Source of the DNA: Wigglesworthia glossinidia endosymbiont of Glossina morsitans morsitans (Yale colony) | Lineage (GTDB): Bacteria > Pseudomonadota > Gammaproteobacteria > Enterobacterales > Enterobacteriaceae | DNA: 32,000 nt | Reading direction: 5' to 3' | Assembly: GCF_000247565.1 (NCBI RefSeq) | Contig: NC_016893.1 | Location: 270,001-302,000 of the forward strand | Shown: positions 16,221-27,138 of the stretch, in pieces | Numbering within the stretch: the first letter of the stretch is position 1 | How the letters are laid out: each line of letters starts with the position of its first letter | Program-made: the position numbers and the translations under genes | The notes under the pieces: model-generated | What the model saw: only the letters and a program-made list of their open reading frames with translations | Told to the model about the DNA's origin: nothing | The model's database searches: none

Positions 16221-17023
16221 TCAATAATTTATCAAAATAAAAATAATATATGCAATTAATAATCTATATATAGCAAAAAATATTAAAGATGTACGATATA
16301 GAATAGGAATTAAAAATTTTCCTAAAAAAAACGATACTAAAAAAGATGTAAAAATACTTAAAACTATCAAATAAGCATTTATTATAAAAAAAGAAAAATT
16401 TTTATAAGTATCTATTATAAACGTTCCACAAGCAATAACAATAAATAATATTAAAGAAAATTCAAATGCAACTTTTCGTGTAAATCCCAAAATTAATCCT
16501 GTAGCAACTGTAATTCCTAGTCTAGAAATTCCAGGAAAAAGAGAAAAACACTGAATAAATCCAATAATTGATGCTTGATAATAATTTATTTGATATATAT
16601 TTGTTACTTTTTTTGTGTCAGATTGTAATAATTCTGAAATAATAAGTACTATTGATCCTGCTATTAAGTGATATGTTATATGTTCAGGTAAATATATTTT
16701 TTGTATATCATGATAGAAGTACGTTCCTGTTACAAAAACAGGTAATAATCCTAAAATACAGCATACAAAAATTTTGAATAGTTTTTTTTTTCATTAAAAT
16801 TACTTAATAAGTAATATGTTGTATTTTTTATATTATTTTTAAATATTAAAAATAAAGATAGTACTGGACCAATTTGAATCATTATTGCTAAATTCTTAAT
16901 ATTTTCTAAATTTATATTGAATAAAAAATTCATTAAAATTAAGTGTCCACTAGACGAAATAGGCAAAAATTCAGTAATGCCTTCTACGATGCCTAATACA
17001 ATTGAAATTAATATTTGCTTCAT
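16221..17023 (-). pseudogene. uppP: Undecaprenyl-diphosphate phosphatase (BacA/UppP), reading frame broken by a 1-nt shift in an A10 tract
   Basis: The N-terminal ORF 16751..17023 carries VEGITEFLPISSSGH. My manual translation of the minus strand shows UppP homology continuing in another frame directly after the A10 run (KLFKIFVCCILGLLPVFVTGTYFYHD...IGFIQCFSLFPGISRLGITVATGLILG), running into listed ORF 16221..16490. One extra A (A11) fuses everything into about 267 codons (E. coli about 273). Confidence 0.85.
16782..16791 (-). repeat. A10 homopolymer (T10 on + strand) at the uppP frameshift site
   Basis: Counted directly in 'gaatagttttttttttcatt'. The frame changes exactly across this run. 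Confidence 0.9.
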
Positions 17024-25233: not shown

Positions 25234-26231
25234 CTAAAAATGTTGATATGCTGAATTGTTATTTATAATATTTGAATATTTTCCTATTAACTGTAATCCT
25301 ATTTTTTTTGAACAAATTTCTCCGATACAAGTTAAAATGATACCTGTTTTTTTTAATAAAAATTTTAGTTCTTTTTTTTTTTTTTAGGAATTGTAAAACA
25401 TAATTCATAATCTTCGCCGCCATATAAAGCAAATGATACAGCGCGTTTATATTCAACGTTTTTTAACAAATATGATGATATTGGCAAATTATCTAAATAA
25501 ATTTTTGCCCCACATTGACTACTATTCAATATATTTTTTAAATCTATTATAGTACCATCAGAAATATCACAAGCAGCATTAACAAGATGTCTTAAAATAA
25601 TGCCTTCGTTAACTCTTGGAATAGGGCGTATGTGTCGATTAATCAAATAATTTCTGCTTTTCTTATCTGTAATACGCAAATTATTCATCAAAATTGATAA
25701 TCCTGCTGCGCTATCTCCTAAAGTACCTGTAACGTATATAAGATCTTTAATTTTAGCACTATAACGGGACATTTTAATATTGTTATTTTTTGGAATTATT
25801 CCTTGAGCAGTTATAGTAATACTTAATGGACCTTTATTTAAATCCCCACCTATTAATTTTACGTTAAATATATTTAAATTATGAAATAATCCTCGGCTAT
25901 ATTTAGATATCCATAATTCGTTAATAAATGGTATAGTAAGAGACAATAAAATCCATTTAGGAGATGCACCCATAGCTGCAAGATCGCTTAAATTGACTGA
26001 TACAGATTTATAGCCTAAATCAAATGGATGAATTTTTTCTAGAAAATGTGTATTTAATACTAAAGTATCCATAGTGATAACTATATAAGATGCAGCATGA
26101 ATTATTGCACAATCATCACCAATTTTAGATTTAATATATTTGTTTTTTTTATTAAATTTATTAAAATATTTATTAATAATGTATTTTTCTTTCTTGTTAT
26201 AATTTTTTTTTTCTTGAAATTTTATGTTCAT
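25234..26231 (-). pseudogene. thiL: Thiamine-monophosphate kinase, frame broken by a 1-nt shift in an A14 tract near the 3' end
   Basis: ORF 25365..26231 matches ThiL up to GGEDYELCFTIP, then runs into A14 and stops (KKKKKN*). My translation of a shifted frame directly after the tract gives ELKFLLKKTGIILTCIGEICSKKIGLQLIGKYSNIINNNSAYQHF*. This aligns with the E. coli ThiL C-terminus ([24 protein letters not shown]...WKGYDHF). A15 or A12 would give about 332 codons (E. coli 325). The restored stop is at 25234-25236, 11 nt before the pgpA start. Confidence 0.85.
25372..25385 (-). repeat. A14 homopolymer (T14 on + strand) at the thiL frameshift site
   Basis: Counted directly in 'agttcttttttttttttttagg'. 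Confidence 0.9.
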
Positions 26232-26237
26232 AAATAT

Positions 26238-26655
26238 TTATTTAATTTTTAAATTTAAATTTGTTGCAACTTTATCTAATACTCCATTAATAAATTTATG
26301 ACTTTTTTCTGCACCAAAAATTTTTGCCAATTCAATTGCTTCATTAATCGCAACTTTATATGGAATTTCTGTATCATGATACAATTCAAATATAGCTATT
26401 CTAAGTACAGATAATTCTATATGACAAATTTGTTGTATACTACGTGATAACAAGCATGGTAATATTAATTTATCTAAATTATTTTTGTTTTTAATTACTC
26501 CATAATATATTTTTTTAAAATAATTAATATCTATGCATTTTTTTTTTATTTAATAAAACATATTTTTGAATTTCTAATATGTTGTTATTAGAAACTTGCC
26601 AAGAATAAAGCGCCTGCAAAGCACATTGCCTAGCATGCCTGCGATAGGTACTCAT
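26238..26655 (-). pseudogene. nusB: Transcription antitermination factor NusB, frame broken by a 1-nt shift in an A10 tract
   Basis: The ATG at 26655 opens [39 protein letters not shown] (E. coli [26 protein letters not shown]...). After A10 the frame hits a stop (MHRY*). The frame obtained by removing one A reads [52 protein letters not shown]... and runs into listed ORF 26238..26453 ([31 protein letters not shown]). With A9 the gene is 138 codons (E. coli 139). Confidence 0.87.
26538..26547 (-). repeat. A10 homopolymer (T10 on + strand) at the nusB frameshift site
   Basis: Counted directly in 'ctatgcatttttttttttatt'. Confidence 0.9.
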
Positions 26656-26673: not shown

Positions 26674-27138
26674 TTATATATTTTTTAATAAATTTATCAT
26701 TTCTAGCAAAGATAATGCTGCATCCGATCCTCTATTACCTAACTTTGCTCCTGCTCTATCTATACCTTGTTGAATATTGTTGAGATATAAAATACTTGAA
26801 ATAATCGGAACATTATTTTCTATACTTATATTTGATATAATAACATTCAAATCTCGAGAAATAATTTCAAAATGTAAAGTTTCTCCTTTAATTATTGTTC
26901 CTATAGTAATAAATCCATTATATCTTTTTTTCATTATTAAATTTTTAATTGTCAAAGGTATTTCGCATACACCTGGTACCCAGATGGTATGTATATTTTC
27001 ATAACTTATTTGACCAACAAGTTTTAATGTGCTAATTGCACCATCGAGTAAGTTTTTATTAATAAACTCATTAAACCGTGCTACAACGATAGCAATTTTT
27101 ATATGAGAGGATTTTAGTGAATTTTCAATAATCTTCAT
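26674..27138 (-). CDS. ribH: 6,7-dimethyl-8-ribityllumazine synthase
   Basis: 154 aa (IAIVVARFNEFI, VPGVCEIPL, F..I.. pattern, GTKAGN-like AGAKLGNRGSDAALS.LEM), collinear with E. coli RibH/RibE. It lies between ribD and nusB as in E. coli. Confidence 0.93.
   Translation of the reverse strand: MKIIENSLKSSHIKIAIVVARFNEFINKNLLDGAISTLKLVGQISYENIHTIWVPGVCEIPLTIKNLIMKKRYNGFITIGTIIKGETLHFEIISRDLNVIISNISIENNVPIISSILYLNNIQQGIDRAGAKLGNRGSDAALSLLEMINLLKNI

What the first reader, a model, noticed from the sequence alone, without database searches (positions are those of the whole stretch)
26238..26655. nusB interrupted by a frameshift exactly inside an A10 run, with homology continuing in the shifted frame
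Seen: the N-terminal 39 codons (MSTYRRHARQCALQALYSWQ...) and the C-terminal ~95 codons (...YFKKIYYGV...LSRS...[10 protein letters not shown]...[31 protein letters not shown]) are both good NusB sequence but lie in different frames. The switch occurs within the A10 tract at 26538-26547. A9 or A12 would give a 138-codon protein against 139 in E. coli. There is no other damage, and both halves look as constrained as the intact neighbours. Established: in Buchnera and Blochmannia, genes with frameshifts in long poly(A) tracts are rescued in part of the mRNA population by RNA-polymerase slippage (Tamas et al. 2008; Wernegreen et al. 2010). Inference: nusB is probably still functional through slippage. 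Alternatively this is a homopolymer sequencing or assembly error. A recently inactivated gene is less likely, given the clean remainder.
Basis: partly seen in the sequence, partly recalled or inferred. Interest (0 to 1): 0.62.

Follow-up and report, generated by a model that had tools for sequence, protein, structure and literature searches.

The report
Conserved poly(A) frameshift in nusB
The transcription-factor gene nusB of the tsetse-fly symbiont Wigglesworthia is broken by a one-base frame error in a run of A's in every sequenced lineage, yet it evolves like a working gene, so it is probably rescued by slippage at that run, as in aphid and ant symbionts.

Summary
nusB lies on the minus strand at 26655..26238 and changes frame inside the A10 run at 26538-26547. 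A9 or A12 would give an uninterrupted NusB of 138 or 139 aa.

The genome is Wigglesworthia glossinidia from Glossina morsitans (719,535 bp; Rio et al. 2012). That paper already lists nusB as a "pseudogene" that is also truncated in the G. brevipalpis symbiont.

- **The break is universal.** It sits at the same tract in all five lineages I could recover, across 12 independent assemblies. Four lineages have A10 and need -1. The brevipalpis lineage has A12 with a shorter linker and needs +1. This rules out an assembly error.
- **Both halves are under strong purifying selection.** ML omega is 0.02-0.04 (LRT p = 3e-15 and 3e-37). Pairwise dN/dS is 0.10-0.18, lower than in the intact neighbours ribH, thiL and pgpA. 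The 27 codons after the tract, which precede any canonical start codon, are also constrained.
- **The Lys run falls in a surface loop** of a confidently modelled NusB fold.
- **NusB's working partners are retained.** nusA, nusG, rho and boxA-like rrn leader elements are all present.

The best reading is a functional gene read through by slippage on the A run.

It is a new member of a known class. This scan has already reported der, fliJ, epmA, mrdA, lpxK, pssA, mltG and engB in the same genome as the same kind.

The parts
26238..26655 (-). nusB, complete gene region (start ATG 26655-26653, final TAA 26240-26238), interrupted by one frame error
   Evidence: The read-through protein P0001 hits TIGR01951 at 138.9 bits over profile 2-130/131 and E. 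coli NusB structures at E=3e-38.
26539..26655 (-). N-terminal 39 codons of NusB in frame 0 (helix 1, helix 2 and the Lys run)
   Evidence: TIGR01951 profile positions 2-31. ML omega 0.036, LRT against omega=1 p=3e-15 over five lineages.
26538..26547 (-). A10 homopolymer (T10 on the + strand): the site of the frame change and the presumed slippage site
   Evidence: The same tract is present in all five Wigglesworthia lineages: A10 in four and A12 in the brevipalpis lineage.
26524..26537 (-). Out-of-frame tail of the unshifted product (MHRY) and its premature TAA stop (26526-26524); base 26537 is the last base of the Lys39 codon (26539-26537)
   Evidence: The tail differs in each lineage (MHRY*, MHRC*, MCRYQLF*, MYRYKLF*, and an immediate TAG in brevipalpis), so it is not conserved as protein.
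26238..26546 (-). C-terminal reading frame (+1 relative to the start): 102 open codons carrying NusB helices 3-7, followed by the final stop
   Evidence: TIGR01951 profile positions 40-130, 112.6 bits. ML omega 0.021, LRT p=3e-37. In the first 27 codons, which precede any ATG/GTG/TTG, there are 5 synonymous changes and 1 non-synonymous change between M and G001.
26674..27138 (-). ribH, the intact upstream neighbour in the ribD-ribH-nusB-thiL-pgpA cluster; used as a selection yardstick and as bait for other lineages
25365..26231 (-). thiL, the downstream neighbour; truncated in this assembly by an A14 run at 25372-25385 (context, not part of nusB)

Best explanation
nusB of Wigglesworthia glossinidia is a functional gene whose DNA is permanently out of frame at a poly(A) tract. 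The bulk transcript encodes only a 43-aa N-terminal peptide.

A minority of expression events change the effective length of the A run and join the two halves. In the morsitans-type lineages the change is A10 to A9 (or A12). In the brevipalpis lineage it is A12 to A13 (or A10). The product is a full-length NusB of 138-139 aa with three or four lysines in the loop between helix 2 and helix 3.

The most likely agent is RNA polymerase slipping on the run of 10 or more A:T pairs, as shown experimentally for Buchnera and Blochmannia genes. tRNA-Lys slippage on the ribosome at the same run may contribute. The full-length protein then acts with NusE (S10), NusA and NusG on boxA-like elements of the two rRNA operons.

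Shown here:
- The frame break is real.
- It is present in the whole genus as sampled.
- There are no other lesions.
- Both halves are under purifying selection.
- The tract lies in a loop.
- The partner genes and boxA-like sites are retained.

Inferred: that slippage happens, which machine slips, and how much full-length protein is made.
For: **1. Real break, not an artefact.** Twelve independent assemblies of five lineages agree.

**2. Ancient.** All five lineages are out of frame at the same tract. Four have A10+TG(C/T) and need -1. The brevipalpis lineage has A12 directly followed by TAGAT and needs +1. The morsitans and brevipalpis symbionts are put 50-80 My apart (PMC3280448).

**3. Purifying selection in each half, in its own frame.**
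- GY codon model: omega 0.036 (N half) and 0.021 (C half). The LRT against omega=1 gives 2dlnL 62 and 163, p=3e-15 and 3e-37.
- NG86 gives 0.10-0.18 for nusB, against 0.22-0.35 for ribH, 0.18-0.26 for thiL and 0.30-0.42 for pgpA.
- The C half read in the wrong frames has 9-17 stops.

**4. Translation enters the C frame at the tract.** The 27 codons right after the tract contain no ATG, GTG or TTG, yet show 5 synonymous changes to 1 non-synonymous. This argues against entry at an internal start.

**5. The read-through protein is a good NusB.**
- TIGR01951 scores 138.9 bits.
- All 40 columns that are invariant across 28 Enterobacterales NusB sequences are kept.
- E. coli NusB structures match at E=3e-38, with the only gap at the Lys run.
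- The AF2 model has pLDDT 89 and seven helices, with residues 37-42 in a loop.

**6. Pathway retained.** nusA, nusG and rho are intact. A GCTCTTTAA / GTTCTTTAA boxA-like core is conserved in otherwise divergent rrn leaders.

**7. No intact copy exists in the data.** No full-length Wigglesworthia NusB is found among 5.8 billion proteins, and there is no second copy in the genome.

**8. Precedent.** Full-length products from homopolymer-frameshifted genes through transcriptional slippage are reported for Buchnera and Blochmannia, as summarised in PMC3017870.

**9. Probable transcription.** Contigs that are probably from bacteriome RNA-seq span ribD-ribH-nusB-thiL. This suggests the gene is transcribed with the genomic tract length as the majority form. 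The link between those runs and the published studies is inferred, not verified.
Against:
- **A published argument against slippage here.** Baranov et al. 2005 (PMC1088944) found that A/T runs of any length are equally frequent in coding and non-coding DNA of W. glossinidia. They suggested this means transcriptional slippage does not occur in this species. If so, the rescue would have to be ribosomal or at the DNA level.
- **RNA-derived contigs show only the genomic length** (A10 or A12), so corrected transcripts are at most a minority.
- **Limited independence.** The four A10 lineages share ancestry, so there are only two independent observations of an out-of-frame state.
- **Saturation.** Synonymous divergence to brevipalpis is near saturation, so omega on that branch is imprecise.
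Confidence: 0.78

Rival explanations
1. The gene is rescued mainly on the ribosome, not by RNA polymerase. tRNA-Lys slips on the run of AAA codons, +1 or -2 in the A10 lineages and -1 in the A12 lineage. In the A12 lineage the run is immediately followed by an in-frame UAG, giving an A AAA AAA UAG 'shifty stop'. The gene is functional either way, so this rival concerns mechanism only and overlaps the best explanation.
For: - The run contains the classical A AAA AAA slippery heptamer.
- In brevipalpis a stop codon sits in the A site right after the last Lys codon, and a -1 slip there gives NKKKK-IDIKYF, exactly collinear with E. coli NusB.
- Baranov 2005 doubted transcriptional slippage in this species.
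Against: - There is no Shine-Dalgarno-like element within 50 nt upstream.
- There is no downstream structure beyond shuffled controls (z -0.29 and +0.57).
- The morsitans-type context (AAA AUG CAU) has no slow codon to drive a +1 shift.
- In this genome, persistent frameshifts are concentrated in runs of 9 or more, about the length of the RNA:DNA hybrid. Runs of 7-8 are more than five times as numerous and suffice for ribosomal slippage. Run-length-dependent mutation supply confounds this point.
Confidence: 0.15
2. Rescue happens at the DNA level. The symbiont population, or its many genome copies per cell, is heterogeneous for tract length through replication slippage. A minority of in-frame genome copies supplies NusB, while the consensus stays out of frame.
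For: - Long homopolymers are replication-slippage hotspots.
- The neighbouring thiL tract reads A14 in the reference and A15 in an independent contig of the same lineage. This shows that tract lengths do vary between data sets.
Against: - All 12 assemblies give the same out-of-frame consensus for nusB within each lineage.
- If in-frame copies arose readily and were better, they should have been fixed at least once in 50-80 My.
- From my memory of Tamas et al. 2008, DNA was homogeneous while RNA was heterogeneous in Buchnera. That paper is not held, so I could not re-check this.
Confidence: 0.05
3. nusB is a true pseudogene, or survives only as a truncated 43-aa peptide. The conservation of the C half would then be due to something other than translation.
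For: - It is annotated as a pseudogene in both published genomes (PMC3280448).
- From my memory, nusB is not strictly essential in E. coli, where deletion gives cold sensitivity.
Against: - Omega is 0.02-0.2 in both halves and significantly below 1.
- There are no stops or further indels in five lineages, although random sequence of this composition would hit a stop about every 11 codons.
- nusB is more constrained than its intact neighbours.
- Reading the C half in the other frames gives 9-17 stops.
Confidence: 0.02
4. The frameshift is a homopolymer sequencing or assembly error.
For: - The reference was made from MDA-amplified DNA with PCR-made Sanger templates.
- At least one neighbouring tract (thiL A14) disagrees with an independent contig.
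Against: - The nusB tract length is reproduced by Sanger, by Illumina DNA and by probable RNA-seq assemblies from at least five studies.
- Two different tract architectures are both out of frame.
Confidence: 0.01

Closest known systems
Poly(A)/poly(T)-tract frameshifted genes of Buchnera aphidicola and Blochmannia rescued by transcriptional slippage (Tamas et al. 2008 PNAS; Wernegreen et al. 2010 MBE; summarised in Williams & Wernegreen 2010, PMC3017870)
   Same: - A single 1-nt frame error inside a homopolymer of 9 or more bases in an AT-rich, reduced insect-symbiont genome.
- No other lesion.
- The frameshift is shared between diverged lineages.
- The downstream part is under purifying selection.
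   Different: - A different symbiont genus (Wigglesworthia) and a different gene (nusB).
- The break spans the deepest split sampled in the genus and has opposite phase in the two clades (+1 nt versus -1 nt).
- RNA heterogeneity and full-length protein, which were shown in the precedent, are untested here.
nusB 'pseudogene' annotation in W. glossinidia morsitans and brevipalpis (Rio et al. 2012, mBio, PMC3280448)
   Same: The same locus. The paper states that nusB, ftsK and nlpB are truncated in both genomes, and notes in general terms that frameshifts in homopolymeric tracts may be corrected during transcription or translation.
   Different: - In the text I could read, the paper gives no nusB-specific analysis. 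Its supplementary tables are not held.
Other homopolymer-frameshifted genes of this same genome
   Same: The same genome, the same kind of lesion and the same inference of slippage rescue.
   Different: In my three-genome comparison, only nusB and ung were split at the same tract in all three species-level genomes. nusB is also the only one I saw with opposite phase in different lineages.
Programmed frameshifts dnaX (-1, A AAA AAG) and prfB (+1, CUU UGA) of E. coli
   Same: Two frames are joined at a slippery site to make one protein. The brevipalpis tract followed by UAG resembles a 'shifty stop'.
   Different: - No stimulatory Shine-Dalgarno element or hairpin.
- No evidence of a regulatory purpose.
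- The site is a long homopolymer, not a defined heptamer with auxiliary signals.

Membership tests
NusB (TIGR01951 / PF01029), transcription antitermination factor | Whole-protein score above the curated equivalog cut-off, with full-length profile coverage | tested here: met
   The read-through protein scores 138.9 bits against a cut-off of 88.35, covering profile 2-130/131 in one stretch. PF01029 matches in the genome at E=1.5e-29.
NusB (TIGR01951 / PF01029), transcription antitermination factor | All-helical NusB fold | tested here: met
   The AF2 model has pLDDT 89 and pTM 0.85, with seven helices. Sequence match to E. coli NusB structures 3IMQ, 1EY1 and 3D3B is E=3e-38. No fold search was run.
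NusB (TIGR01951 / PF01029), transcription antitermination factor | Conserved residues and enterobacterial gene neighbourhood (ribH-nusB-thiL) | tested here: met
   All 40 columns invariant in 28 Enterobacterales NusB sequences are kept. The gene order is ribD-ribH-nusB-thiL-pgpA.
NusB (TIGR01951 / PF01029), transcription antitermination factor | Encoded by one uninterrupted reading frame | tested here: not met
   The frame changes inside A10. The unshifted ORF is 43 aa.
NusB (TIGR01951 / PF01029), transcription antitermination factor | Binds boxA RNA with NusE and promotes rrn antitermination | not testable with these tools
   Context only: boxA-like cores are present in the rrn leaders and spacers, and nusA, nusG and rho are intact.
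Slippage-rescued homopolymer frameshift genes of insect endosymbionts (Buchnera/Blochmannia class) | A single indel inside an A or T run of 9 or more bases, with no other lesion in the gene | tested here: met
   A10 in four lineages and A12 in one, with no in-frame stops in either half in any of the five.
Slippage-rescued homopolymer frameshift genes of insect endosymbionts (Buchnera/Blochmannia class) | Frameshift conserved between diverged lineages | tested here: met
   Five of five lineages and 12 assemblies.
Slippage-rescued homopolymer frameshift genes of insect endosymbionts (Buchnera/Blochmannia class) | Purifying selection on the part downstream of the frameshift | tested here: met
   Omega is 0.021 for the C half, LRT p=3e-37. 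NG86 gives 0.105-0.21.
Slippage-rescued homopolymer frameshift genes of insect endosymbionts (Buchnera/Blochmannia class) | mRNA pool heterogeneous in tract length, including frame-restoring lengths, beyond the DNA baseline | not testable with these tools
Logan contigs keep only the majority form.
Slippage-rescued homopolymer frameshift genes of insect endosymbionts (Buchnera/Blochmannia class) | Full-length protein produced | not testable with these tools
   No proteomic data were accessible.
Programmed ribosomal frameshift cassette (dnaX / prfB type) | Slippery site allowing tRNA re-pairing in the new frame | tested here: met
   An all-A run. In brevipalpis it reads A AAA AAA UAG.
Programmed ribosomal frameshift cassette (dnaX / prfB type) | Stimulatory elements (upstream SD-like sequence, downstream hairpin or pseudoknot) | tested here: not met
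   No GGAG, GAGG or AGGA within 50 nt upstream. The fold of the 70 nt downstream is no more stable than shuffles (z -0.29 and +0.57).
Pseudogene | Relaxed selection (omega near 1) and accumulation of further lesions | tested here: not met
   Omega is far below 1 and there are no further lesions in five lineages.

The most novel reading that the evidence does not exclude
The out-of-frame state is selectively maintained as a built-in attenuator of NusB dosage, not merely tolerated. Its read-out depends on RNA-polymerase slippage, which the Nus elongation factors may themselves modulate. That would make an autoregulatory loop for a transcription factor.

Persistence of an out-of-frame tract supports this weakly. 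In-frame revertants (A9, A12 or A13) should arise easily, yet both deep clades are out of frame, with opposite phase.
Probability: 0.05. Interest if true: 0.7.

Novelty: new member of a known kind. Interest (0 to 1): 0.38.

Why it matters
- **Annotation.** nusB should be recorded as a probable slippage-dependent gene in all Wigglesworthia genomes, not as a pseudogene. This changes the inferred transcription machinery of a medically relevant symbiont; tsetse flies are sterile without it.
- **A good test case.** It has opposite phase in two clades. That makes it suitable for asking whether such frameshifts are only tolerated or are maintained by selection, the question raised by Wernegreen et al. 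2010.
- **A claim to settle.** It also bears on the suggestion by Baranov et al. 2005 that transcriptional slippage does not occur in Wigglesworthia.
- **Limits.** The phenomenon itself is established in other symbionts, so a specialist would find this expected rather than surprising.

Tried and rejected
1. **Read-level test.** No tract-length distribution in RNA or DNA could be obtained.
2. **Primary papers.** Tamas et al. 2008 and Wernegreen et al. 2010 are not held. I relied on the summary in PMC3017870. No slippage frequencies are quoted because I could not verify them.
3. **Supplementary Table S1 of Rio et al. 2012** is not held.
4. **SRR accessions.** A text search for the SRR accessions of the Logan contigs found nothing. 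Assigning SRR222998xx to SRP408059 (PMC10126493) and SRR55900xx to PRJNA387614 (PMC5601960) is therefore only probable.
5. **L030** (SRR24489324) is another degraded symbiont with many split genes, not Wigglesworthia, and was set aside.
6. **Split NusB from an internal start: rejected.** The conserved 27 codons after the tract contain no ATG, GTG or TTG, and the first such codon lies at different positions in different lineages.
7. **ORF-fusion census.** My first census is noisy because it also fuses adjacent genes such as rnpA-yidD, murE-murF, holA-nadD and dfp-dut. Only cases checked by tblastn layout in three genomes are reported.
8. **Fold search.** I did not run one. The sequence match to solved NusB structures is already decisive.

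Full report
**What is in the sequence**

- On the minus strand, an ATG at 26655 opens a frame that reads 39 codons of NusB-like sequence ([39 protein letters not shown]). It continues with MHRY and stops at TAA 26526-26524.
- A run of ten A (T10 on the + strand) occupies 26538-26547.
- The +1 frame is open from 26546 to the TAA at 26240-26238. It reads ...[17 protein letters not shown]...[31 protein letters not shown]....
- Changing the run in silico to A9 or A12 gives one open frame of 138 or 139 codons. A8, A10 and A11 do not.
- The read-through protein (P0001) scores 138.9 bits on the NusB equivalog TIGR01951 (cut-off 88.35) over profile positions 2-130 of 131 in a single stretch. The two pieces alone cover 2-31 and 40-130.

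**Where it comes from and what is already published**

- The window is bases 270001-302000 of a single 719,535-bp contig with 25% G+C.
- That size, the G+C content and the gene content match the chromosome of Wigglesworthia glossinidia from Glossina morsitans described by Rio et al. 2012 (PMC3280448).
- A congener in the genome collection has a 697,724-bp contig and carries the ribH that sources name as W. glossinidia of G. brevipalpis. A third genome is a MAG named W. glossinidia.
- Rio et al. list eleven "pseudogenes". [quoted passage not shown]
- They also remark, citing Wernegreen et al. 2010, that transcription or translation may restore function at frameshifts in homopolymeric tracts.
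- The locus and the general idea are therefore in the literature. I found no nusB-specific analysis in the text; the supplementary tables are not held.
- The reference was Sanger-sequenced at 9.4x from MDA-amplified DNA, so an independent check of homopolymer lengths was needed.

**Is the tract length real?**

I recovered the nusB region from every Wigglesworthia source the tools reach. I used the C-terminal ORF and the neighbouring ribH as bait.

| Lineage | Source | Tract at the break |
|---|---|---|
| M | this genome, plus Logan contigs L024-L026 from three runs | A10 + TGC |
| D | L108, a 417-kb contig | A10 + TGC |
| E | L109-L112, four runs | A10 + TGT |
| A | G001 MAG | A10 + TGT |
| B | brevipalpis reference, plus L029 | A12 followed directly by TAGAT |

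- All twelve assemblies are out of frame.
- The M-type tract is one base too long relative to the collinear in-frame form AAT-AAA-AAA-AAA-NNN-ATA-GAT. The B-type tract is one base too short. The two deep clades therefore need opposite corrections, -1 and +1.
- No full-length Wigglesworthia NusB exists among 5.8 billion clustered proteins. The best hit to the read-through protein is Blochmannia at 62% identity. The genome has no second copy.
- An assembly error is excluded.

**Is the gene decaying?**

I aligned each half, in its own frame, across the five lineages.

- *Codon model.* A Goldman-Yang model gives omega 0.036 for the 36 N-terminal codons and 0.021 for the 98 C-terminal codons. Fixing omega at 1 costs 2dlnL of 62 and 163 (p = 3e-15 and 3e-37).
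- *Pairwise counts.* Nei-Gojobori values for nusB are 0.11 (M vs A), 0.18 (M vs B) and 0.17 (A vs B), with dS of 0.67-0.96.
- *Neighbours.* The intact neighbours are less constrained: ribH 0.22-0.35, thiL 0.18-0.26 and pgpA 0.30-0.42.
- *Wrong frames.* Reading the C half in either wrong frame gives 9-17 stops.
- *Just after the tract.* The first 27 codons after the tract precede any ATG, GTG or TTG. They differ between M and A by five synonymous changes and one non-synonymous change. Translation therefore enters this frame at the tract, not at an internal start.

According to the literature the M and B hosts have been separate for 50-80 My. A pseudogene, whether recent or old, does not fit these data.

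**Would the joined protein work?**

- The read-through protein keeps all 40 columns that are invariant in an alignment with 27 other Enterobacterales NusB sequences, on both sides of the junction.
- It aligns with E. coli NusB structures (3IMQ, 1EY1, 3D3B, 5MS0, 6GOV) at E = 3e-38. The only gap is at the lysine run, where E. coli is one residue longer.
- An A12 or A13 message would therefore give a protein exactly collinear with E. coli. An A9 message would give one that is a residue shorter.
- An AlphaFold2 model (pLDDT 89, pTM 0.85) has seven helices. Residues 37-42 (KKKCID) form the loop between helix 2 and helix 3, so one lysine more or less should be tolerated.
- The pathway is retained. 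nusA, nusG and rho are intact.
- The otherwise poorly conserved rrn leaders of M, A and B share a boxA-like core (AAAGCTCTTTAA or AAAGTTCTTTAA). Similar elements lie in the 16S-23S spacers of M, A and B.

**Mechanism**

The data require that ribosomes reach the C frame through the tract.

- *Precedent.* Full-length products arise by transcriptional slippage in homopolymer-frameshifted genes of Buchnera and Blochmannia (summarised in PMC3017870).
- *Length argument.* Persistent frameshifts in this genome concentrate in runs of 9 or more, about the RNA:DNA hybrid length. About 13 lie among 131 runs of 10 or more. Only a few (epmA, mrdA) were confirmed among 389 runs of 9, and I confirmed none among 984 runs of 8. 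This points to RNA polymerase.
- *No frameshift cassette.* There is no Shine-Dalgarno-like sequence and no stable downstream structure that would mark a dnaX-type cassette.
- *Ribosomal slippage is not excluded.* tRNA-Lys can re-pair anywhere in the run. In brevipalpis the run is followed at once by UAG, a classical shifty-stop context.
- *A caveat from the literature.* Baranov et al. 2005 inferred from run statistics that transcriptional slippage might not occur in W. glossinidia at all.
- *A third route.* A minority of in-frame genome copies could supply the protein. This is less likely given the uniform consensus.

Several Logan contigs probably derive from published bacteriome RNA-seq (PMC10126493 and PMC5601960). 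They are continuous across ribD-ribH-nusB-thiL and carry the genomic tract length. This suggests the gene is transcribed and that corrected messages are a minority. The link between those runs and the studies is my inference.

**Context in the genus**

- I took the two congeneric genomes as loci and screened homopolymer runs of 8 or more in all three genomes for frame breaks.
- About 17 otherwise well-conserved genes are out of frame at A or T runs in this reference.
- Some breaks are unique to this reference: surA, uppP, thiL, pssA, lpxK site a, ftsK and mltG.
- Some are shared with G001: der, fliJ, recJ, epmA, lpxK site b and zapE.
- Among the genes this screen scored, only nusB and ung are broken at the same tract in all three.
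- Earlier follow-ups of this scan had already classed der, fliJ, epmA, mrdA, lpxK, pssA, mltG and engB of this genome as slippage-rescued genes.
- nusB is one more member. It is distinguished by its age and by the opposite phase in the two clades.

**Verdict**

This is a real, genus-wide, anciently conserved poly(A) frameshift in a gene that is clearly still under selection. It is most likely expressed by slippage at the tract: confidence is about 0.78 that it is functional through slippage, with RNA polymerase the likelier agent. It is a new member of a known kind, at a locus already annotated as a pseudogene. Interest is moderate to low for a specialist. It would rise only if the out-of-frame state proved to be selected as a dosage control.

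Noticed in passing
window 25372-25385 (thiL, minus strand): thiL is truncated to 288 aa by an A14 run in this reference. An independent contig of the same lineage (L024) has A15 and an intact 332-aa ThiL, and lineage D (L108) also has A15. G001 and brevipalpis have an intact thiL with a shorter, interrupted run. This break may be a reference error, a polymorphism or an RNA-level length change.
   Followed up: partly
L025 and L026, 3' ends (equivalent to window ~25371-25385): Two contigs of the morsitans-type symbiont end exactly at the thiL A-tract with 27 or more A's, where the genome has A14 followed by GAACT. If the runs are poly(A)-selected RNA-seq, as seems likely, this could be reiterative transcription or polyadenylation at the tract. 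It could also be a library artefact.
   Followed up: no
G000:C1:508546-508555 (outside the window); G001 C10 ~51542; G002 ~333717-333726: ung (uracil-DNA glycosylase) is split at an A10 run in all three Wigglesworthia genomes with the same phase. The catalytic HPSPLSA motif lies downstream of the shift. It is a second genus-wide conserved poly(A) frameshift and is not among those Rio et al. name as shared.
   Followed up: partly
window 16782-16791 (uppP, minus strand): uppP is split at an A10 run in this reference only. G001 and brevipalpis have an uninterrupted uppP.
   Followed up: partly
whole genome G000: About 17 conserved genes are out of frame at A or T runs of 9 or more in this reference. 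They include genes I recall as essential in E. coli (der, engB, lpxK, pssA, mrdA). Rio et al. 2012 counted 11 pseudogenes using a criterion of at least 50% truncation. Seven of the breaks are unique to this MDA/PCR/Sanger reference and need independent confirmation.
   Followed up: partly
G000 ~143070 and ~707180 (rrn leaders); G002 136472 and 685852: A boxA-like element (AGCTCTTTAACAA in brevipalpis; GTTCTTTAAAA in morsitans) is the main conserved island about 115 nt upstream of both 16S genes. A second element lies in the 16S-23S spacer.
   Followed up: partly
L030 (SRR24489324 contig): This is an unrelated symbiont-like contig with the same ribH-nusB-thiL-pgpA order in which ribH, nusB and pgpA are all split. 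It may be a degrading symbiont genome or an error-rich assembly.
   Followed up: no
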